Assembly: GCA_038230535.1 (NCBI GenBank)
Contig: JBBRNB010000017.1
Coordinates: 2,728-66,727 of the forward strand
Direction: 5' to 3'
DNA from: Thermoanaerobaculia bacterium
GTDB lineage: Bacteria; Acidobacteriota; Thermoanaerobaculia; Gp7-AA8
DNA length: 64,000 nucleotides
Below are positions 24,381 through 62,882 of the stretch, one piece after another; position 1 is the stretch's first letter; each line of letters starts with the position of its first letter. Under the pieces are notes generated by a model. That model was not told where the DNA came from. It did no database searches and was given only the letters and a program-made list of their open reading frames with translations. The translations under genes were made by a program, and so were the position numbers.

Positions 24381-25118
24381 ATGACGACGACAATCGAGCC
24401 TCAAACGCAACCCGCGCACACCGAAGCCCCGGCGCTCCAGCGCCAGTTCGTCAACTTCATGTTCTTCAAGGCCGACCGCGCCCTCCGGCGTGAGAGCGCC
24501 GAGGTGAAGGAACAGGCCAAACGCGAATTCGTGGAGATCGTCCGCCGCCACACCGGCCCGATGATGGTCCTGCCGTACTCCACCGTCGGCCTGAAGCCGA
24601 ACACGGACTTCATGTTCTGGCGCATCGGCTACGACATCGACCCCTTCCAGCAGATGGCGGCCGACATCAACAAGTCGATCCTCGGCCGGTACCTGGACAT
24701 CCCGGTGTCGTACTTCTCGATGACCAAGCATTCGCAGTACGTCGACGAGCACGTTCACGAAGGGCAGGAAGGGCGGCGACTGAAGATCGTCCCAGGCAAG
24801 AAACCGTTCCTCTTTGTCTATCCGTTCGTGAAGACTCGCGACTGGTACCTGCTCCCGCAGAGCGACCGCCAGCGGATCATGAGCGAGCACATCGCCATCG
24901 GCCACAAGTACCCGCGCGTGAAGATCAACACGACCTATTCGTTCGGCCTCGACGACCAGGATTTCGTCGTCGCTTTCGAAGCCGATTCCGCCGCCGAGTT
25001 CCTCGACCTTGTTCAGGAGCTCCGCGAGACGGAGTCGTCGAAGTTCACCCTGCGCGATACGCCGATGTACACGTGCCGGAGATCGACGATCGAGGAGATT
25101 CTGGACTCGCTGGCGTAG
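24381..25118 (+). CDS. Chlorite dismutase family protein (HemQ / coproheme decarboxylase-like)
   Basis: The Cld/HemQ fold signature is recognised and length is typical at 245 aa. Confidence 0.7.
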   Translation: MTTTIEPQTQPAHTEAPALQRQFVNFMFFKADRALRRESAEVKEQAKREFVEIVRRHTGPMMVLPYSTVGLKPNTDFMFWRIGYDIDPFQQMAADINKSILGRYLDIPVSYFSMTKHSQYVDEHVHEGQEGRRLKIVPGKKPFLFVYPFVKTRDWYLLPQSDRQRIMSEHIAIGHKYPRVKINTTYSFGLDDQDFVVAFEADSAAEFLDLVQELRETESSKFTLRDTPMYTCRRSTIEEILDSLA

Positions 25119-38313: not shown

Positions 38314-39213
38314 TCATTGGAAGCCGGTGGTGGCACGGCCACGCATCACCAGAATGATCGTCTCCCACCGCCCGTCCCTGGTTTCAGGGAGGGGATTCCT
38401 CGCCGTCCTGCGCCGCGTGGGTCGACCTGCGCGATCGGCCGGCGAGTCGAGGCGCGGCTTCGGCGGGCTCGGAATGACAGGTTGGTTATTGCCTGCGCGG
38501 ACGTGTGCCTGGTTCTGGCGTGAGCGTGCTGCAGCGGGAACTTGCCGCGATGCGCATGTCAGCTCGCGCACTTCGTTTGACATCTCGCGGGTTGTGTTTC
38601 TCATCGCGCGCTCAGCTCTTGGCAGCTCGCGCTCGGCTCTTGGCAGCTCGCACTCAGCTCTTGGCAGTCCGCGCTCAGCTCTTGTCAGTTCGCGCTCAGC
38701 TCTTGGCAGTTCGTACTCTGCTCTTGGCAGTTCGCGCTCTGCTCTTGGCAGCTCGTACTCTGCTCTTGGCAGTTCGCGCTCTGCTCTTGGCAGCTCGCAC
38801 TCTGCTTTTGGCAGTTCGCGCTCGGCTCTTGGCAGCTCGCACTCTGCTTTTGGCAGCTCGCGCGCTGCCTTTGGCAGTTCGCGCTCTGCTCTTGTCAGTT
38901 CGTACTCTGCTCTTGGCAGCTCGCGCTCTGCTCTTGTCAGTTCGCGCTCTGCTTTTGGCAGCTCGCGCTCTGCTCTTGTCAGTTCGTACTCTGCTCTTGG
39001 CAGCTCGCACTCTGCTTTTGGCAGTTCGCGCGCTGCCTTTGGCAGTTCGCGCTCTGCTCTTGTCAGCTCGCGCTCTGCCTTTGGCAGTTCGCGCGCTGCC
39101 TTTGGCAGTTCGCGCGCTGCCTTTGGCAGTTCGCGCTCTGCTCTTGTCAGTTCGCGCTCGGCTTTTTGATCCTCGCGTGATGCTTTTTGACTCGAGCTCG
39201 CTTCATTTCCCAC
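38314..39213 (-). CDS. Possible heptad-repeat protein (E-R/Y/C-E-L-P/T-K/R-A)x~26 encoded across the 21-bp array; coding status uncertain
   Basis: An ORF stays open through the array on the minus strand, and an AT-rich promoter-like region lies upstream. GC3 of this frame is low for this genome. Confidence 0.3.
   Translation of the reverse strand: MGNEASSSQKASREDQKAERELTRAERELPKAARELPKAARELPKAERELTRAERELPKAARELPKAECELPRAEYELTRAERELPKAERELTRAERELPRAEYELTRAERELPKAARELPKAECELPRAERELPKAECELPRAERELPRAEYELPRAERELPRAEYELPRAERELTRAERGLPRAECELPRAERELPRAERAMRNTTREMSNEVRELTCASRQVPAAARSRQNQAHVRAGNNQPVIPSPPKPRLDSPADRAGRPTRRRTARNPLPETRDGRWETIILVMRGRATTGFQ
38615..39181. repeat. Tandem 21-bp minisatellite, 26 perfect-length units plus 1 degenerate (consensus GCTCTTGGCAGTTCGCGCTCT)
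   Basis: Direct inspection shows every unit is exactly 21 bp. Variation is confined to about 6 positions. Confidence 0.9.
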
Positions 39214-39582
39214 ACCCGCACGAGCAGTCCGACCGCCGCATCCAGGCTATCGGTGCGTCCGTCATCCCGAAGCGCTGCTGTCCCATGCAGTTCTCACGCC
39301 GCGTTGTATGTTGAAGTGCGCCGTTTGAGGTATACATGCGATATACCTATGTATATTTGTGGCAACGCTGTAAACAAATTGTATCCACATGATAAAAACG
39401 CATTACGTCATTGACAACTCCATTTCACGGACCTAACTTGATATTCACCGGTCGTACCCTACGGCAATGTCGACAAGTGCCGAACGCCTGCATGGCTCTC
39501 TAGAACGTCATGCCGGTAACCACGCAAACCGCGAGCGCGTGTCGTGCCCTCGGTGTGCTTTAACGAAAACGAGAGGAACACA

Positions 39583-40582: not shown

Positions 40583-40661
40583 GGAGTCAGCGCAAGAGCC
40601 GGCACAGACAGGAGTGTCTGTGCCACATGGGCACTTCTGACATCGGCGGATCTGCTCCGCT

Positions 40662-52830: not shown

Positions 52831-53313
52831 ATGAAGCGCTTCGTCGAATGGGACTCGATCAACGTCCGGGTGGACGGTGAGAAGCTCAACGCTCTCGCGG
52901 CGTCCTTTCGCGTCGATCCGATCGAGCGGATGGAGCTGCAGTTCTTCAACGGCCTGCTGCGGATCAGCGGCTCGTTCCGGAAGTTCATCAGCGTTCCGTT
53001 CACCGTCGACATCCGTGAGATCCGGCCCAGCGGACGGACGGTCCGTGTGCCGATTGCCTCGGCGTCGGCATTCGGCGCGTTGCCGATTCCGCAGTTTCTC
53101 TTCGGTCTCGTGAGAAATCGCCTTCCCGCGGATCTGGTGCGCTACGAGGATCCGGCGACGTTCGTCGTCTCCCTGGAGCGCTTCTTGCCAGAGTTCATCG
53201 ATGCCGATATCCAGGAGATCTGGATCATCGACGGCGGTTTGGCGGTTACCCTCGGACGAGGTGGCGCAGACCTTCCGCCGCCTCTGGAGGATTCAAATGG
53301 AAGAAACACCTGA
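52831..53313 (+). CDS. Hypothetical protein
   Basis: The ORF has coding-like composition. It overlaps the downstream DUF1232 gene. Confidence 0.4.
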
Positions 53314-53827
53314 CCCTGTAGCCGCAGGAACCGACGAAGATCTGGCCCGCGAGATCCGCGACGCCGCGGAGCAGGAGGAATTGCCGCGCGATCGCGCCGG
53401 CCGTTTTTACGATCGCATGCGCAGCACCATCCGGCGCTACGTCGAAGGGAAGGGGAAAGCACTCGACAAGACAACCGAGTTTCTCCTGCTGGTCCCCGAC
53501 GTCTTCATTCTCCTGTGGCGCCTCACGACGGACTCGCGCGTCAACGGCAAGGACAAACTCCTGCTCGGCAGCGCCGTGGTGTACTACGTGATGCCGTTCG
53601 ATCTCATCCCCGAAGCCATCGTCGGCCCGATCGGTTACCTCGACGACCTCGTCTTCGGCGTCTACGTGCTGAACAAGGTCCTGGGCAGCGTCGACGCCAG
53701 CATCATCCGCGAGCACTGGAGCGGCAGCGAAGACGTCCTCGGCACGATCCACCGTGTGCTCAACGCCGCCGATTCCCTCATCGGCAAGGACCTCGTGGCC
53801 AAGATCAAGAAGATGATGGGAAAGTGA
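53297..53827 (+). CDS. DUF1232 (YkvA-like) membrane protein
   Basis: The characteristic DUF1232 motifs are present (LLVPDVFILLWRL...YVMPFDLIPE..GYLDDL). Confidence 0.6.
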   Translation: MEETPDPVAAGTDEDLAREIRDAAEQEELPRDRAGRFYDRMRSTIRRYVEGKGKALDKTTEFLLLVPDVFILLWRLTTDSRVNGKDKLLLGSAVVYYVMPFDLIPEAIVGPIGYLDDLVFGVYVLNKVLGSVDASIIREHWSGSEDVLGTIHRVLNAADSLIGKDLVAKIKKMMGK

Positions 53828-53838
53828 TGTTGAGACCG

Positions 53839-54516
53839 TTACGACGAACCGCTTGGAATTTGCGGGTTAGCGCGCGTGCGAGTGTCGTCGCGGATGATAG
53901 CGTCGAATTCTTGACGGGGAAGTTTGCGGTTGAGCAGGTACATCAGTTGGGAGCACCGAGTTGCGTCTTTGTCAAGCGCCGTTGCCTTTGCGAATTGCGC
54001 GAGCAGTCGCGTGATCTCTTCCTGCAACTCATCACGGAGTGCCCCACTCGTGAGTCCGTCCAGCCGTGCAAGGGTGCGCCGCGCGAACGCCTCGAAACTC
54101 GTGATGCCTCGAAGAAGGCGTTCAACACGGTTTATGTTGCGCGCTGAGAGGCGGGCGCCGATGGAGGACAAGGCGAGCTCCTGGTACCACTTGACAAGGT
54201 CGAATGGTCCCCAGAGGACGTCTTCGTCAGGCTGTTTCTCGTTTTTCTTGAGGAAGAATCTTGCGCGGAGGACTGCTTCAGTGCTCGTTCCTGTGGCCAT
54301 AGCCCAAAGCCAGAGGTTGTCCGTGATTGTTGCCCGCGCGAGCAGGATGACGAAGACGCTCGCTGGAATGAACGCTCGCGACGTTAGGTAGAGGAAACCG
54401 GGAAGCGTTGTCGCGCCGGAGAACGCGCCGTTCTCGTATCGTTGGTACACGCCTTGGAATCCGGCGGCGAGGCCGAAGAATGCTGCGAGGCTCGCCCAAG
54501 CGTACGATGCGTTCAC
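53839..54516 (-). CDS. Hypothetical 3-TM membrane protein with cytoplasmic C-terminal domain (lower-GC module)
   Basis: Three N-terminal hydrophobic helices are present. GC is about 55% against about 65% for the genome. Confidence 0.45.
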   Translation of the reverse strand: MNASYAWASLAAFFGLAAGFQGVYQRYENGAFSGATTLPGFLYLTSRAFIPASVFVILLARATITDNLWLWAMATGTSTEAVLRARFFLKKNEKQPDEDVLWGPFDLVKWYQELALSSIGARLSARNINRVERLLRGITSFEAFARRTLARLDGLTSGALRDELQEEITRLLAQFAKATALDKDATRCSQLMYLLNRKLPRQEFDAIIRDDTRTRANPQIPSGSS

Positions 54517-54572
54517 CTCCGCATGATAGAGGCGTGGGACATTGATAAGTCAAGAAGGTTGACTGGCGTCAA

Positions 54573-54824
54573 CTAACTTCGGAAGGACTTCGCGAGAAAA
54601 TCATACTGGCCCGGCTTGATCGTGACGATTTCGCGCAGGACGTTGTCCTTGTCCCGGATGGTAACGTAGTTGTTCTGCTCGAGGTCTTCGACGATTTGCC
54701 CAAGCTCGTTCTCCCGAATAAAAGTTAGTGCGAGAAGCTCGAGAAAGGGTAACGAGGTGTAGCGGAGGAGCGTCTGCACGACCGATCGATACTTCGCTTC
54801 GCTCTCAACGGGAATCGAGGTCAT
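54573..54824 (-). CDS. Hypothetical 83-aa protein (possible winged-helix-like), downstream of VapB-like gene
   Basis: GC is about 52%. The start is ATG 54824 (MTSIPVE...) or, further upstream, 54881. Confidence 0.4.
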   Translation of the reverse strand: MTSIPVESEAKYRSVVQTLLRYTSLPFLELLALTFIRENELGQIVEDLEQNNYVTIRDKDNVLREIVTIKPGQYDFLAKSFRS

Positions 54825-54902
54825 GACGTCGCTCACAGCTCTAGTATACGAGCAAGGCGGTGCTGCGATTCCACCTTTCACTCCTCAATCGAGTGCCGGG
54901 GA

Positions 54903-55094
54903 TCACGACGTTCTACGCCTCGGCGGTGCGGACGCTCGCGGGTCGCTTCCGCCGAGGCGTGCCAGTCGCCTCGCACTCTCCCGCACGATGAGCGCCCGGA
55001 GAGCCTCGTGGATCAACGCAGTTCGTTCCTTCGTGCCAGTAATCCGTTGAGCGTCTTCGATCAATTGTTCGTCGATGTTGATGGTGAGGCGCAT
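54903..55094 (-). CDS. VapB-family (Rv0623-like RHH) type II antitoxin-like protein
   Basis: The sequence MRLTINIDEQLIEDAQRITGTKERTALIHEALRALIVRESARRLARLGG is a classic VapB/DUF2191 signature. Confidence 0.7.
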   Translation of the reverse strand: MRLTINIDEQLIEDAQRITGTKERTALIHEALRALIVRESARRLARLGGSDPRASAPPRRRTS

Positions 55095-55145
55095 GGCTCG
55101 ACTCCGATTCTGTGCTCAAGCGTACCTCAAGATGCATCTGCACCT

Positions 55146-56321
55146 TCACCCTTCCTGGAACGCAGCGTACCTCGTAGCTTCCGGCATATACGTACACAGC
55201 GGATCCGACGCGAACACATCTCCGGTCATCGACCAGGCTCTGGCGCGCGAGCCGCCGCAGAGGTCGCGGAACTCGCAGACGCCGCACTTGCCCTTCAGGT
55301 TGCTGCTTTCGCGAAGGCTGGTGAACAGGTCACTCGAGCGGTAGATCTCGCCGAGGGACTGTTTTTTCACGTTGCCGGCCTTGAGGGGCAGGAAACCGCT
55401 CGGGAAGACGTCGCCAAGGTGCGAGATGAAGACAAATCCCTTCCCCTCGTTGACGCCGCGCGGGGCGCGGGAGACGGCTCCGGTCTGCGTCTTGACGCCG
55501 AGGGGCATCGTGCGCGGACCGTGTTGCAGAAAGAGTGTCGACGCATCGATGAGACCTGTCGCCGGATCGAGATACTTGTCGATCGACTCACCTCTCTCCG
55601 CCGCCATGCGCTGCAACATGTAGCGGCGGTAGTGCATCGCCTCGGTCGTGCGAATCGCGAACGGAACGCGTTTGCTTGTGTCATAGAGAAAGCCGAAAAG
55701 CTGTTCGACCGCCTGGGGTGAGATCAGGTCGGCCTGTTTTCCGCGCCCGGTCGGGACGAGGAAGAAGACGCTCCACATCGCGATTCCGAGGCCCGAGAGA
55801 AGCTCGACCATCTGGGGGAGATCATCGACCGTGCGGCGTGTCACGGTCGTGTTGATCTGCACGGGGATGCCTTCGCGCTCTGCCGCGCGGATGGCGCGCA
55901 GCGTGAGGTCGAACGAACCGGGGACGCGCCGGAAATCATCGTGCAGGCCGGCACGTGAAGCATCGAGACTGATGGCGAGCCGGGCCAGACCGCGGTTCTT
56001 CATCCGCGCGATGGCTCCGTCGGTGAGCAACGGCGTCGCGCTTGGTGTGAGCGACGGCTCGAGACCAACGCTCTTCGCGTAGGCGATCATATCGAACGTG
56101 TCCTCGCGCTTGAGAGGGTCGCCGCCGGTGATCACGAAAACGCGCGGCTGCAACAGGGCGATGTCGTCGATCAGGCGGTACCCTTCCTCAGTCGTCAGCT
56201 CGAACTGGCTGCGGCGCGGCTGCGCGGCGGCACGGCAATGCACGCACGACAGGTCACACGCGCGGGTGCTCTCCCAGATCACCACGAACGGCTCGAGATT
56301 GAAATCGACACTGCCACTCAT
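55146..56321 (-). CDS. ahbD: Radical SAM/SPASM heme synthase AhbD-like (NirJ2-like)
   Basis: It has CDLSCVHC (CX3CX2C) and C-terminal SPASM cysteines (CGVCEFRDLCGG). The ATG overlaps the ahbAB stop. Confidence 0.7.
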   Translation of the reverse strand: MSGSVDFNLEPFVVIWESTRACDLSCVHCRAAAQPRRSQFELTTEEGYRLIDDIALLQPRVFVITGGDPLKREDTFDMIAYAKSVGLEPSLTPSATPLLTDGAIARMKNRGLARLAISLDASRAGLHDDFRRVPGSFDLTLRAIRAAEREGIPVQINTTVTRRTVDDLPQMVELLSGLGIAMWSVFFLVPTGRGKQADLISPQAVEQLFGFLYDTSKRVPFAIRTTEAMHYRRYMLQRMAAERGESIDKYLDPATGLIDASTLFLQHGPRTMPLGVKTQTGAVSRAPRGVNEGKGFVFISHLGDVFPSGFLPLKAGNVKKQSLGEIYRSSDLFTSLRESSNLKGKCGVCEFRDLCGGSRARAWSMTGDVFASDPLCTYMPEATRYAAFQEG

Positions 56322-61408: not shown

Positions 61409-62632
61409 TCACGCGGCCGGCCGCTTCTTGAGCGCGATGTATGGGCGGGCGATCTGGCGAAGGCCCCAGTTTCTCGCCGCATAGATGTGATCCTGGAGTG
61501 CCGGCTCGATCAGGCCAGCCGCCTCTTCCGGCTGGACCACCAAAGAGACCTCGATCGGCAGGATGCCCACTGGCAGCCGCGCGCGGCGACAGCTCTCGTG
61601 CAGGTAGGCAAAAACCTCTTTCATCGCCCCCGGGTCGGGCGGCGGAACGTTCTCCATCTCGCTTCCGATCGTCGGACGGAAGATGCAGACCGTGGGGAAG
61701 GCTCCTGCCGACACGATCCGATCGATGCCGCGTTTCGTGGCTTCGATCGATTCGACGCCGGCGATGATCTCGCCGGAGACGCGCCCTCGCCCAAGCTTCT
61801 TCGCCGTGTACTCCATCGCCTCGAAGAACGCGTGCTGTCCAACGGTCTGCGCCTTTCCGGGACAGAGGCGGGCGAAGACCTCGGGGTCTTCAAATTCGTA
61901 GCAGAACGAGAAGTGATCCGTGCCGGCGGCGATCAATTCGTCGTACTCACCGTATTGTGCTCGTGGCACCGGTACCGCCTGAATGCCGATGAAGCCACCG
62001 ACGCTGGCGCGCACGGCGCGCACGAATACTTCGCATTGCCGGAGGCCATGAATGATTTCGCGGCCGGGGCGGTCTTCGTAGTGGTACCCGGTATTGAAGT
62101 GCGTGAAAATGGTTCCTGATTCGTCGCGCGCCGCGCGCGCCACTTCCACGACGTCGCGCCAGTTCTTCCGGCTCTCCTCGGCGGTGCCGACGTTCTTGCC
62201 GGTGGTGCAGAACTTACAAGCCACCGACGGCGACCACGTCCAGTACAGACATCGGTTGGAGACATAGACGGCGAGGTAGTTGCCCTGCAGAACGCCGACG
62301 CGGCTCATCTCGACGCCGGAGGTGGTCCGGCGCGAGTACCACGCCGGCTCTTCGGGAATGCGAACCGGGTACTCCTCCGCGTCGCGGCTGTCGAGAATGA
62401 AATAGCCGCCGTCTTTCCGTTGCAGCGTGAACACAGAGTCTTGCGCGAAGGGCTCGACGACGGGGACGTTGACCCAGATATCCTTCCGCCTGGCCGGCAG
62501 GACGATCTCCAGCCCGGAACCGAGCCCGGCTCGCGTGCGGCTGATCCGCCGGCCGTCGCTTGCGCGGCACGATTCGCTGATCTGCATCCCGCGACAGAAC
62601 AGCTCGATCTCGAGCTCCACTGCTCTCAGCAT
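61409..62632 (-). CDS. Putative Fe-S / radical-SAM-like enzyme with non-canonical CX10CXFC motif
   Basis: The motif is NRCLYWTWSPSVACKFCTTG. No canonical CX3CX2C is present. Length is 407 aa. Confidence 0.35.
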   Translation of the reverse strand: MLRAVELEIELFCRGMQISESCRASDGRRISRTRAGLGSGLEIVLPARRKDIWVNVPVVEPFAQDSVFTLQRKDGGYFILDSRDAEEYPVRIPEEPAWYSRRTTSGVEMSRVGVLQGNYLAVYVSNRCLYWTWSPSVACKFCTTGKNVGTAEESRKNWRDVVEVARAARDESGTIFTHFNTGYHYEDRPGREIIHGLRQCEVFVRAVRASVGGFIGIQAVPVPRAQYGEYDELIAAGTDHFSFCYEFEDPEVFARLCPGKAQTVGQHAFFEAMEYTAKKLGRGRVSGEIIAGVESIEATKRGIDRIVSAGAFPTVCIFRPTIGSEMENVPPPDPGAMKEVFAYLHESCRRARLPVGILPIEVSLVVQPEEAAGLIEPALQDHIYAARNWGLRQIARPYIALKKRPAA

Positions 62633-62743
62633 GCGATGAGTGAACGCCGAAGCTGTTCCACGACTCTATGACGATCATCACATCGGGGTGTGACGGCGGG
62701 TACGGTTCGGAGGCTCACGTATGTGAAGAATTGCGGTGGAACG

Positions 62744-62882
62744 GTAGATCAGTGGATTGGTAGATCAGTGGATCAGAAACAGTGCGGTTTAGCAGTAGAC
62801 GGTGGATTGGTAGATCAGTGGATCAGAAACATTGAAATACGAACAACAGAGCAACCGATCACCACTGATCCACTGATCCACT
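62744..62882. promoter_or_regulatory. Array of 4 direct GTAGATCAGTGGAT and 3 inverted CCACTGATC repeats (8 GATC sites) upstream of a gene
   Basis: Seen in sequence. A GGAGGG Shine-Dalgarno and an ATG at 62900 follow. Confidence 0.4.

What the first reader, a model, noticed from the sequence alone, without database searches (positions are those of the whole stretch)
53839..55094. Lower-GC three-gene module: VapB-like RHH protein without a PIN partner, an 83-aa unknown, and a 3-TM membrane protein
The 63-aa protein at 54903-55094 is a textbook VapB/Rv0623-like antitoxin (MRLTINIDEQLIEDAQRITG...ARRLARLGG). The gene immediately downstream is not a PIN-domain VapC; it lacks the MxxLDTNV start and the acidic quartet. 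It is instead an 83-102-aa protein of unknown fold, followed by a 225-aa protein with three N-terminal TM helices. All three genes have a GC of about 52-56%, against about 65% for the surroundings. That suggests horizontal acquisition. The module could be an uncharacterised toxin-antitoxin, abortive-infection or defence module that uses a VapB-type DNA-binding antitoxin with a new effector. It sits between DUF1232 and the ahb operon.
Basis: partly seen in the sequence, partly recalled or inferred. Interest (0 to 1): 0.6.

Follow-up and report, generated by a model that had tools for sequence, protein, structure and literature searches.

The report
Orphan vapB beside a mobile two-gene cassette
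The supposed three-gene module is two separate things: a leftover VapB antitoxin gene that has lost its PIN toxin, and beside it a rare, horizontally transferred pair of genes of unknown function (a small acidic winged-helix protein and a membrane protein) that always occur together.

Summary
The three ORFs are real, on the minus strand. They are vapB (55094-54903, 63 aa, Pfam VapB_antitoxin E=3.6e-15), ORF2 (54836-54573, 87 aa) and ORF3 (54516-53839, 225 aa). The GC dip is real but overstated. vapB is 62.5% GC, the same as the window mean (62.8%). ORF2 is 53.8% and ORF3 is 59.1%.

vapB is not part of a module with the other two genes. Close VapB relatives (79-87% identical, 63 aa) were followed by a PIN gene overlapping by 4 nt at all three distinct loci inspected. 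In the window only about 30 nt resembling the start of vapC remain.

ORF2 and ORF3 form a separate cassette of about 1 kb with its own conserved upstream region. An ORF2-like gene lies next to the ORF3-like gene in 13 of 13 testable loci. None of them has vapB, and the flanking genes differ. Cassette GC deviates from its flanks in the long loci.

ORF2 has a known fold, a MarR-like winged helix, but its recognition helix is acidic. ORF3 belongs to a rare family (143 clusters among 1.84 billion representatives) with no Pfam, PDB, PADLOC or PHROG match. The cassette's function is unknown. I favour an inhibitor-effector (TA/Abi-like) pair slightly over an SdpR/SdpI-like dyad. Interest is modest.

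The parts
54903..55094 (-). vapB: intact 63-aa ribbon-helix-helix VapB-family antitoxin gene, orphaned (no PIN partner)
   Evidence: PF09957 E=3.6e-15, 56 bits. Full-length match (positions 1-63) to an HMM of 120 relatives, E=1.4e-38. 79-87% identical to 63-aa VapBs of Thermoanaerobaculia/Acidobacteriota. dN/dS against PIN-paired copies is 0.06-0.08. A GGAG lies 7 nt before the ATG.
55130..55139 (-). Perfect 10-bp palindrome AGATGCATCT upstream of vapB; probable VapB operator (inferred)
   Evidence: Read from the sequence. Relatives carry TGATGCATCA-type palindromes at the same place upstream of vapB (alignment A1). Not tested functionally.
54876..54906 (-). Probable remnant of the 5' end of vapC. 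GTG overlaps the vapB stop as GTGA, followed by ATCC..CGGCAC; the reading frame is broken after that.
   Evidence: Aligns to the TTGATCCTCGTCGACAC starts of PIN genes in L006, L008 and L009, after which similarity is lost. No PIN match anywhere in the window by HMM with --max. The stretch is short, so this is suggestive only.
54837..54875 (-). Conserved upstream region of the cassette: GGTGGAATC ... TTGC ... TATACT (54848-54843), 6 nt before the GTG start. Promoter-like, and implies a leaderless or nearly leaderless mRNA (inferred).
   Evidence: Conserved between the window, L001/L002, L011 and L003, while sequence further upstream is unrelated (alignment A7).
54573..54836 (-). ORF2: 87-aa acidic (pI 4.85) winged-helix protein, MarR-like core without the MarR dimerisation helices
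   Evidence: AF2 model pLDDT 80.8 with H-S-H-H-S-S topology. Foldseek PDB top hits are MarR, HpaR, PadR and ArsR-type regulators, prob 1.0, best E=3.6e-4. 4 of 14 family members hit Pfam MarR, best 2.4e-6. Recognition helix net charge is -4. dN/dS is 0.12-0.18.
54517..54572 (-). ORF2-ORF3 spacer, 56 nt here against 9-13 nt in most loci. Contains the palindrome GTTGAC-gcca-GTCAAC (54573-54558) and TTGACT-19 nt-TATCAT (54553-54523), 6 nt before the ORF3 GTG.
   Evidence: The window carries about 44 extra nt relative to L001, L011 and L003 (alignment A8). The motifs were read. A possible second promoter is inference only; the 19-nt spacer is why the scan did not list it.
53839..54516 (-). ORF3: 225-aa basic protein. 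N-terminal three hydrophobic/amphipathic helices (about residues 5-23, 40-60 and 68-88), a conserved GPFDLxxWYQ helix, and a C-terminal helical domain of about 100 aa. The last 15 codons (53839-53885) are a window-specific read-through past the ancestral stop.
   Evidence: Only 5 word-index homologues among 5.8e9 proteins. A profile finds 143 clusters among 1.84e9 representatives. Invariant G15, Y43, R47, G76, E80 and R84 in 56 sequences. No Pfam, PDB, PADLOC or PHROG hit. Hydropathy and topology. The C-terminal junction is seen. dN/dS is 0.06-0.19.

Best explanation
The region holds two unrelated elements that happen to abut.

(1) vapB is the surviving half of a canonical vapBC type II toxin-antitoxin locus of a family that is very abundant in Thermoanaerobaculia. 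The PIN toxin gene has been lost, leaving about 30 nt of its 5' end. vapB is intact and keeps an operator-like palindrome and a Shine-Dalgarno sequence. It most likely persists as an autoregulated orphan antitoxin. It may be a decaying remnant, or it may be kept because it can neutralise paralogous VapCs.

(2) Directly after that remnant sits a self-contained cassette of about 1 kb (about 54875-53885). It has its own conserved promoter-like region and encodes ORF2, an 87-aa acidic winged-helix protein, and ORF3, a roughly 210-aa basic protein with an N-out/C-in three-helix membrane anchor and a cytoplasmic helical domain. The pair is an obligate unit that moves horizontally between distant bacteria and lands between unrelated housekeeping genes.

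Inferred mechanism: ORF2 acts through protein-protein contact rather than as a classical repressor, because its recognition helix and wing are acidic in most of the family and no operator palindromes are enriched upstream. I propose that it binds the basic cytoplasmic domain of ORF3 and holds this membrane effector in check. That is inhibitor-effector logic, as in toxin-antitoxin or abortive-infection pairs.

Shown: gene identities, loss of PIN, strict ORF2-ORF3 linkage, absence of vapB from other copies, the winged-helix fold, and compositional foreignness.

Inferred: ORF2-ORF3 binding, membrane insertion, and any toxicity or defence role. I put the TA/Abi-like reading at about 0.35 on its own and the two-element architecture at about 0.85.
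For: vapB:
- Pfam VapB.
- More than 3600 relatives, many of 63 aa and 75-87% identical, named VapB from Thermoanaerobaculia.
- At all three distinct loci inspected (five loci fetched, two of them duplicates) the next gene is PIN, overlapping by 4 nt.
- The window keeps GTGATCC..CGGCAC after the vapB stop, then homology ends.
- No PIN anywhere in the window.
- Orphan antitoxins are common and are mostly degraded TA loci (PMC7354431).

Cassette:
- An ORF2-like gene lies next to the ORF3-like gene in 13 of 13 testable loci (loci).
- None of these loci has vapB; upstream genes there are a membrane protein, a histidine kinase, HTH_17 and others.
- The boundaries are defined by alignments.
- Relatives of the host share synteny only up to about 55165, and none of 80 loci carries vapB, PIN, ORF2, ORF3 or DUF1232 downstream.
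- Cassette GC is 6-12 points below its flanks in the six long high-GC loci and 7.7 points above them in a 42% GC host. GC3 is lowered in the window.
- Purifying selection acts on both genes.

Inhibitor-effector reading:
- The ORF2 family has pI 4.5-5.6 in 12 of 14 sequences (the two L015 copies are basic), against a median of 8.9 for ORF3.
- H3 net charge is -1 to -5 in 13 of 14 family sequences; the fourteenth, a truncated L015 copy, is 0.
- No palindrome enrichment upstream in 13 loci.
- The gap between the genes is 9-13 nt in most same-strand loci.
- In L003 ORF3 is a deletion-plus-frameshift pseudogene while ORF2 is intact.
Against: - In L004 and L015 the two genes are divergently transcribed. 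That is unusual for TA operons and typical of regulator-target pairs.
- No known TA or defence family matches.
- No homologues were found in phage, plasmid or IMG/VR collections.
- There is no defence-island context.
- ORF3 has a specific invariant Y/R/E/R constellation rather than looking like a simple pore-forming peptide.
- The ORF3 structure model was too poor to use (pLDDT 51.6).
- An ORF2-ORF3 interaction has not been tested in any way.
- The vapC remnant is only about 30 nt, with about 12 of 16 matching bases at its start.
- PIN pairing of close VapB relatives was checked at only three independent loci.
Confidence: 0.5

Rival explanations
1. Signalling or immunity dyad of the SdpR/SdpI or PadR/HAAS type. 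ORF2 is a transcription factor that autoregulates the operon. ORF3 is a membrane sensor or immunity protein that sequesters ORF2 at the membrane when it perceives an envelope signal or an external toxin, and so derepresses its own synthesis.
For: - The architecture matches: a small winged-helix gene first, then a membrane protein of about 210 aa in a two-gene operon, as in sdpRI (PMC2910880) and HAAS-PadR (PMC11237479).
- The winged-helix fold is closest to MarR, PadR and ArsR regulators.
- The divergent arrangement in L004 and L015 is typical of regulator-target pairs.
- The predicted topology puts the ORF3 C-terminal domain in the cytoplasm.
- Histidine-kinase genes flank the cassette in 3 of 9 contexts (a post hoc observation).
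- Immunity genes are also patchy and horizontally transferred.
Against: - The recognition helix is net acidic in 13 of 14 family sequences and the wing is neutral or acidic in most.
- There is no conserved wing arginine.
- No operator-like palindromes stand out above shuffles upstream of 13 ORF2-like genes.
- No SdpI, DUF1700, DUF1129, DUF1048, PadR or ArsR Pfam hit in the window proteins, in 56 ORF3 relatives or in 14 ORF2 relatives.
Confidence: 0.3
2. vapB, ORF2 and ORF3 form one three-gene TA, Abi or defence module in which the VapB-type antitoxin controls or neutralises a novel effector.
For: - The genes are on the same strand and tightly packed. vapB stops 66 nt before the ORF2 start.
- In one other locus (L017) another small DNA-binding gene, HTH_17/MerR-like, directly precedes the pair. 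An upstream regulator could therefore be a recurrent but swappable accessory.
Against: - vapB is absent from all 12 other loci that carry the pair (and the locus tables).
- The cassette brings its own conserved upstream region, which starts about 28 nt after the vapB stop.
- vapB has native GC whereas the cassette does not.
- Close relatives of this VapB are paired with PIN, and a vapC-start remnant is still visible.
Confidence: 0.04
3. ORF2 and ORF3 are subunits of an ordinary, non-conflict membrane complex, for example a small accessory or assembly factor. The patchiness reflects poor sampling of uncultured lineages rather than mobility.
For: - Both genes are under purifying selection.
- The flanks are housekeeping genes.
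- There is no link to mobile elements, phages or plasmids.
- Nearly all members come from metagenomes of poorly sampled phyla.
Against: - GC deviates from the flanks in both directions depending on the host.
- The cassette is absent from the syntenic site of the closest relatives.
- No close relative was found among 185,579 GTDB species representatives. This search was pattern-limited.
- Pseudogenised copies exist.
- Only 143 clusters were found among 1.84e9 representatives.
Confidence: 0.15

Closest known systems
VapBC type II toxin-antitoxin systems (Pfam VapB_antitoxin PF09957 + PIN PF01850)
   Same: The 63-aa protein is a full-length, well-scoring member of PF09957. It is 79-87% identical to VapBs that sit in canonical vapBC operons of the same bacterial class. 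An upstream palindrome resembles their operators.
   Different: The PIN toxin gene is missing, with only about 30 nt of its start recognisable. This is an orphan antitoxin, not a TA system.
SdpR-SdpI (Bacillus subtilis cannibalism immunity operon; ArsR-type wHTH autorepressor + membrane immunity/signal protein)
   Same: A two-gene operon with a winged-helix protein of about 90 aa followed by a membrane protein of about 200 aa. Three-TM variants exist. The distribution is patchy. The proposed physical contact between the small protein and the cytoplasmic face of the membrane protein is the same.
   Different: No sequence match to the SdpI or ArsR families. The ORF2 recognition helix is acidic in 13 of 14 family sequences. 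ORF3 has a large soluble C-terminal helical domain that SdpI lacks. No cognate toxin locus is nearby.
HAAS-PadR-like wHTH dyads (DUF1700/DUF1129/DUF1048 helical domain + standalone PadR wHTH)
   Same: Strict co-migration of a standalone small winged-helix protein with a membrane-anchored alpha-helical protein. A conserved G-P-containing helix lies next to the membrane domain.
   Different: HAAS lies N-terminal to its TM region and matches DUF1700-type models. ORF3 has the TM region first and matches none of them. ORF2 is MarR/TrmB-like rather than PadR-like. The cassette is horizontally mobile and rare.
MarR-family transcription regulators
   Same: The winged-helix core (H-S-H-H-S-S) superposes on MarR, HpaR and BpsR with Foldseek probability 1.0. 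Some family members hit the Pfam MarR model.
   Different: Only 87 aa, so it lacks the N- and C-terminal dimerisation helices. The recognition helix is acidic and there is no conserved wing arginine. The window protein itself is below any Pfam threshold.

Membership tests
VapB antitoxin family (PF09957) | Match to the family HMM above the curated cut-off, full length | tested here: met
   56 bits against a cut-off of 23.4, profile positions 1-46 of 47. Positions 1-63 of an HMM built from 120 relatives, E=1.4e-38.
VapBC type II TA system | PIN-domain toxin gene immediately downstream of, or overlapping, vapB | tested here: not met
   The downstream gene has no PIN hit and folds as a winged helix. 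An HMM of cognate PINs finds nothing in the 64-kb window. Relatives have PIN overlapping by 4 nt.
VapBC type II TA system | Palindromic operator upstream of vapB for autoregulation | tested here: inconclusive
   AGATGCATCT at 55130-55139 resembles the TGATGCATCA repeats of relatives. There is only one copy here, and binding was not tested.
PIN domain (for ORF2) | PIN HMM match, or a Rossmann-like fold with the acidic quartet | tested here: not met
   No Pfam or NCBIfam hit. The predicted fold is H-S-H-H-S-S.
Winged helix-turn-helix superfamily (for ORF2) | H1-S1-H2-H3-S2-S3 topology and structural match to solved wHTH domains | tested here: met
   Model pLDDT 80.8. Foldseek prob 1.0 and TM 0.6-0.7 to MarR, HpaR, PadR and ArsR proteins.
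MarR family (PF01047) (for ORF2) | HMM match above cut-off; roughly 140-aa dimer with N/C-terminal dimerisation helices; basic recognition helix and wing Arg | tested here: not met
   The window protein has no MarR hit; only 4 of 14 relatives do (best E=2.4e-6). Length is 87 aa. H3 net charge is -4, and -1 to -5 in 13 of 14 family sequences. The wing Arg is not conserved.
SdpR/SdpI immunity-signalling operon | SdpI-family membrane protein and ArsR-type SdpR | tested here: not met
   No SdpI or ArsR-type Pfam hit for the window proteins at E<=1, for 56 ORF3 relatives at E<=0.01 or for 14 ORF2 relatives. Only the gene order and sizes match.
HAAS-PadR dyad | HAAS domain (DUF1700/DUF1129/DUF1048) N-terminal to the TM region; PadR-type wHTH partner | tested here: not met
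   No such Pfam hits. The domain order is reversed, with TM first.
Known anti-phage defence systems (PADLOC-DB v2) | HMM match of any component | tested here: not met
   No hits for the window proteins or for diverse relatives.
Generic type II/IV toxin-antitoxin pair (for ORF2-ORF3) | Two small adjacent co-transcribed genes, acidic neutraliser and basic effector | tested here: met
   Adjacent in 13 of 13 loci, with 9-13 nt gaps in most. pI 4.5-5.6 in 12 of 14 ORF2-family sequences against a median of 8.9 for ORF3.
Generic type II/IV toxin-antitoxin pair (for ORF2-ORF3) | Invariant co-directional operon organisation | tested here: not met
   Divergent orientation in L004 and in both copies in L015.
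Generic type II/IV toxin-antitoxin pair (for ORF2-ORF3) | Toxicity of the effector and neutralisation by the partner | not testable with these tools
   Needs expression experiments. The only indirect hint is the ORF3 pseudogene with intact ORF2 in L003.

The most novel reading that the evidence does not exclude
ORF2-ORF3 is a previously unrecognised, horizontally mobile toxin-antitoxin or abortive-infection type. An acidic, non-DNA-binding winged-helix protein restrains a membrane-anchored effector of a new fold family. Here it has invaded an existing vapBC locus and displaced the PIN toxin. That would be an example of one selfish or defence module overwriting another while leaving the old antitoxin behind.
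Probability: 0.22. Interest if true: 0.6.

Novelty: new variant of a known kind. Interest (0 to 1): 0.3.

Why it matters
The orphan vapB is routine genome decay. The useful result is negative for the original claim: there is no VapB with a new effector.

The analysis does define a clean, conserved and annotation-free two-gene cassette. It pairs a winged-helix protein with a family of membrane proteins that has no Pfam model. The cassette is seen in at least Acidobacteriota and other phyla, including probably Bacteroidota (L017, inferred from T9SS sorting-domain neighbours), and has clear signs of horizontal transfer. If it proves to be a toxin-antitoxin, defence or toxin-immunity module, it would add a new membrane effector family and a non-canonical use of a winged helix. 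If it is a signalling dyad, it would add to the SdpRI and HAAS-PadR class of alternatives to two-component systems. Either way it is a small, easily cloned candidate for experimental testing.

Tried and rejected
- ORF3 structure: AF2 with the 5-sequence alignment gave pLDDT 51.6. Foldseek against PDB with that model returned nothing below E=4. Both prediction slots had been used before the deeper 56-sequence alignment existed.
- Sequence-profile searches of ORF3 (56 sequences) against PDB chains gave only noise from helical proteins, best E=0.18.
- Pfam on 56 members gave one spurious EhaL hit. PHROGs gave nothing.
- Longer family members (P0130, P0187, P0200, P0247 and others) carry no recognisable extra domains, so fusions gave no functional clue.
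- GTDB species representatives: no close ORF3 relative. This search was limited to two peptide patterns, so distant members could have been missed.
- Phage, plasmid and IMG/VR searches found nothing. One viral scan failed because the alignment was too diverse.
- Looked for target-site duplications or terminal inverted repeats around the cassette. Only chance-level short repeats were found.
- Rfam on 53000-56000 found nothing near threshold.
- The sigma-70 and terminator scan gave one weak internal site and no terminator.
- Palindromic operators upstream of 13 ORF2-like genes were not enriched over shuffles.
- A sigma-54-type reading of the conserved TGGAATC...TTGC was considered and rejected because the spacing is wrong (read).
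- The weak NCBIfam SocA-antitoxin hit to ORF2 (E=0.1, 12 bits against a cut-off of 190) and the weak JetA hit (E=0.01) were dismissed as noise.
- I tried to find an 'empty site' or a vapBC-filled site in relatives. Synteny simply ends at the 3' end of the radical-SAM gene, and the downstream genes differ. The order of events (vapBC insertion, then cassette) therefore could not be reconstructed.
Full report
**1. What is in the sequence**

On the minus strand between the ahb-like operon and a convergent DUF1232 gene there are three ORFs:
- vapB, 55094-54903, 63 aa.
- ORF2, listed as 102 aa from GTG 54881. Alignment with homologues places the real start at GTG 54836, giving 87 aa (MSDVM...).
- ORF3, 54516-53839, 225 aa.

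The radical-SAM gene ends at 55146. The identical Logan contig L005 shows Radical_SAM, AsnC_trans_reg2 and Radical_SAM genes upstream and DUF1232 downstream.

- vapB is 62.5% GC against a window mean of 62.8%. ORF2 is 53.8% and ORF3 is 59.1%.
- GC3 is 0.69, 0.74 and 0.68 for the three genes, against 0.78-0.84 in neighbouring genes.
- The region is in the lowest 2% of same-size windows (z=-2.5). Three other places in the window are equally low.

**2. vapB is a canonical antitoxin that has lost its toxin**

- The protein matches Pfam VapB_antitoxin at 56 bits, against a cut-off of 23.4.
- It has more than 3600 relatives. Many are exactly 63 aa and 75-87% identical, and those with names are called VapB from Thermoanaerobaculia or Acidobacteriota.
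- At the three independent loci I could inspect (L006/L007, L008, L009/L010), the next gene is a 119-125-aa PIN protein. Its start codon overlaps the vapB stop by 4 nt, and it begins LILVDTSVW....
- In the window the same junction reads GTGATCC-CCGGCAC, against TTGATCCTCGTCGACAC in the relatives. Similarity then stops and the frame closes after 21 codons.
- An HMM built from those PIN proteins finds nothing anywhere in the 64-kb window, even with filters off. There is no second vapB either.
- vapB itself is intact. It matches its family HMM over the full length (E=1.4e-38). It has a GGAG 7 nt before the ATG and a perfect palindrome AGATGCATCT at 55130-55139, similar to the TGATGCATCA repeats upstream of its relatives.
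- dN/dS against PIN-paired copies is 0.06-0.08, although dS is saturated.
- Orphan antitoxins are frequent and mostly derive from degraded TA loci. They have been proposed to persist as anti-addiction or cross-neutralising factors (PMC7354431).

**3. ORF2 and ORF3 form a separate, strictly linked pair**

The word-index search found only 4-5 homologues for each protein among 5.8 billion. A profile of the ORF3 family against 1.84 billion cluster representatives found 143 clusters (107 at E<=1e-10), mostly of 200-240 aa.

I retrieved DNA for 14 further loci that carry an ORF3 homologue. HMM scans of all six frames show an ORF2-like gene next to the ORF3-like gene in every testable case, 13 of 13:
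- In most loci it is on the same strand, 9-13 nt upstream.
- In L004 and in both copies in L015 it is divergent.
- In L014 the upstream DNA is cut off.

Profile comparison supports homology even for the most distant partner (hhalign E=2e-5). The 14-member alignment shares a KSMPFLEL...IVxDLE...LVxV...EIVT pattern.

None of these loci has vapB. The upstream neighbour is variously a 154-aa membrane protein, a hybrid histidine kinase, an HTH_17 protein, a Roadblock-like protein or an AI-2E transporter. The wider flanks are unrelated housekeeping genes (pur, pil, gcv and Mla genes).

**4. Cassette boundaries and mobility**

- Among the window, L001/L002, L011 and L003, similarity begins at GGTGGAATC (54875). 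It continues through a conserved TATACT (54848-54843) lying 6-8 nt before the start codon, which suggests a leaderless transcript. Sequence further upstream is unrelated.
- The cassette therefore starts about 28 nt after the vapB stop, directly behind the putative vapC remnant.
- At the other end, similarity stops at the ancestral stop codon. The window copy has lost that stop and reads through 15 extra codons.
- The window also has about 44 extra nt between ORF2 and ORF3. These contain the palindrome GTTGAC-N4-GTCAAC and a TTGACT-19-TATCAT pair 6 nt before the ORF3 start.
- The host is a Thermoanaerobaculia bacterium; its radical-SAM protein is 84-89% identical to those of L022-L025 and L035.
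- DNA synteny with those relatives ends at about 55165. None of 80 related loci has vapB, PIN, ORF2, ORF3 or DUF1232 downstream.
- Cassette GC differs from its flanks in the long loci, and always towards about 50-57%. It is 5.7 to 12.2 points lower in the six long high-GC loci and 7.7 points higher in a 42% GC host.
- Both genes are under purifying selection: dN/dS is 0.12-0.18 for ORF2 and 0.06-0.19 for ORF3.
- Decayed copies exist. In L003 ORF3 has lost the region for helices 2-3 and is frameshifted, while ORF2 is intact. L015 carries two inverted copies with broken ORF3 genes.
- No relatives were found in phage genomes, plasmids or IMG/VR contigs. No close relative was found among GTDB species representatives, though that search was pattern-limited.

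**5. What the two proteins are**

ORF2:
- The model has pLDDT 80.8 and the topology helix-strand-helix-helix-strand-strand plus a short C-terminal helix.
- Foldseek places it with MarR-, HpaR-, PadR- and ArsR-type regulators at probability 1.0 (best E=3.6e-4, TM 0.6-0.7).
- 4 of 14 family members hit Pfam MarR, MarR_2 or TrmB.
- It is therefore a minimal winged helix, not an unknown fold.
- It is atypical for a DNA binder. The family has pI 4.5-5.6 in 12 of 14 sequences (the two L015 copies are basic). The recognition helix carries net charge -1 to -5 in 13 of 14 sequences, and 0 in a truncated L015 copy. The wing is neutral to acidic in most. No wing arginine is conserved.
- No palindromes stand out above shuffles upstream of 13 ORF2-like genes.

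ORF3:
- It is basic (family median pI 8.9).
- In 56 aligned sequences the N-terminal 125 residues are best conserved. G15, Y43, R47, G76, E80 and R84 are invariant, and there is a GPFDLLRWYQ motif.
- Hydropathy gives two borderline transmembrane helices and a third amphipathic one. The K+R distribution fits N-out/C-in, which places the invariant R/E/R cluster and the helical domain of about 100 residues at the cytoplasmic face.
- Pfam, NCBIfam, PADLOC, PHROGs and PDB sequence profiles do not recognise it.
- Its structure model was unusable.

**6. How it most likely works**

The architecture is well supported: an orphan vapB plus an independent mobile ORF2-ORF3 cassette. For the cassette I infer that the acidic winged helix binds the basic cytoplasmic domain of the membrane protein.

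I slightly favour an inhibitor-effector (TA/Abi-like) logic, at about 0.35. The reasons:
- ORF2 looks like a protein binder rather than a repressor.
- The pair is small, tightly coupled, rare and horizontally transferred.
- It is lodged in a TA locus.
- It shows effector-first decay, with ORF3 lost and ORF2 kept in L003.

The main rival, at about 0.3, is a sequestration-type signalling or immunity dyad like SdpR-SdpI (PMC2910880) or HAAS-PadR (PMC11237479). That model better explains the divergent gene arrangement in two lineages and the regulator-like fold. Both remain inferences.

**7. Novelty and verdict**

vapB is already known and its orphan state is ordinary. The ORF2-ORF3 pair is an undescribed family pair whose architecture resembles known wHTH-plus-membrane-partner systems without belonging to any of them. 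I class it as a new variant of a known kind with unknown function. Interest is 0.3. The most novel reading still open is a new membrane-effector TA/Abi type that overwrote vapC. I give that about 0.22 probability, and 0.6 interest if true.

Noticed in passing
window 53839-54836; L001, L003, L017, L018, L019, L020 cassettes: Cassette GC is pulled towards about 50-57% whatever the host. It is 6-12 points below the flanks in high-GC hosts and 7.7 points above them in a 42% GC host.
   Followed up: yes
window 54915-54926 and 54949-54960: A perfect 12-bp inverted repeat (ACGCCTCGGCGG / CCGCCGAGGCGT, 22-nt loop) lies inside the 3' end of vapB. It is partly present in relatives' vapB genes. It could be an mRNA hairpin or just a consequence of the RLGG/PPRR codons.
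   Followed up: partly
window 54903-55094 / L005 5092-5414: vapB was not called as a gene in the identical Logan contig. Its exact protein is absent from the 5.8-billion-protein collection, where the best hit is 87% identical. It is probably unannotated in the source record.
   Followed up: partly
window 40600-40628; L024 4914-4940 and 4962-4990: A 27-29-nt element from a related Thermoanaerobaculia chromosome matches the window at 96-100% identity in both orientations. It lies far from any other shared sequence and looks like a small palindromic (REP-like) repeat shared between genomes.
   Followed up: no
L001 6815-8455; L003 2998-5961; L017 4863-7328: Histidine-kinase genes directly flank the cassette in 3 of 9 independent contexts. 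In L003 and L017 they are co-directional and immediately upstream. This was noticed post hoc and could hint at a signalling link.
   Followed up: no
L017 7408-7761: An HTH_17/MerR-like 117-aa gene whose stop codon overlaps the start of the ORF2-like gene. This is the only other locus with a small DNA-binding gene in the position that vapB occupies in the window.
   Followed up: partly
window, L001, L003, L018, L019, L020 (downstream of ORF3-like gene): The gene after the ORF3-like gene is convergent in 6 of 7 long loci. In the window the ORF3 stop is 11 nt from the DUF1232 stop. The cassette seems to land at the ends of transcription units.
   Followed up: no
upstream of ORF2-like genes: window 54867-54875, L012, L013, L017, L020: A GGAAT(C) motif recurs upstream of ORF2-like genes in several unrelated lineages, twice in L017 as CCGGAATCAA. 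Its position is variable and its significance was not tested (printout).
   Followed up: no
L015 700-1900 and 3355-4315: Two inverted, near-identical copies of the cassette lie on one 5-kb contig. Both are in divergent gene order and both have frameshifted or truncated ORF3 genes. This is either real decay or assembly error.
   Followed up: partly
window about 24550-24850, 38450-39350 and 62550-62750: Three other stretches of the window have GC as low as the region studied (57-58%). These may be further foreign segments.
   Followed up: no
L013 1249-4083: Downstream of the low-GC copy of the cassette are three ORFs (147, 356 and 460 aa) with no Pfam or PADLOC match.
   Followed up: partly
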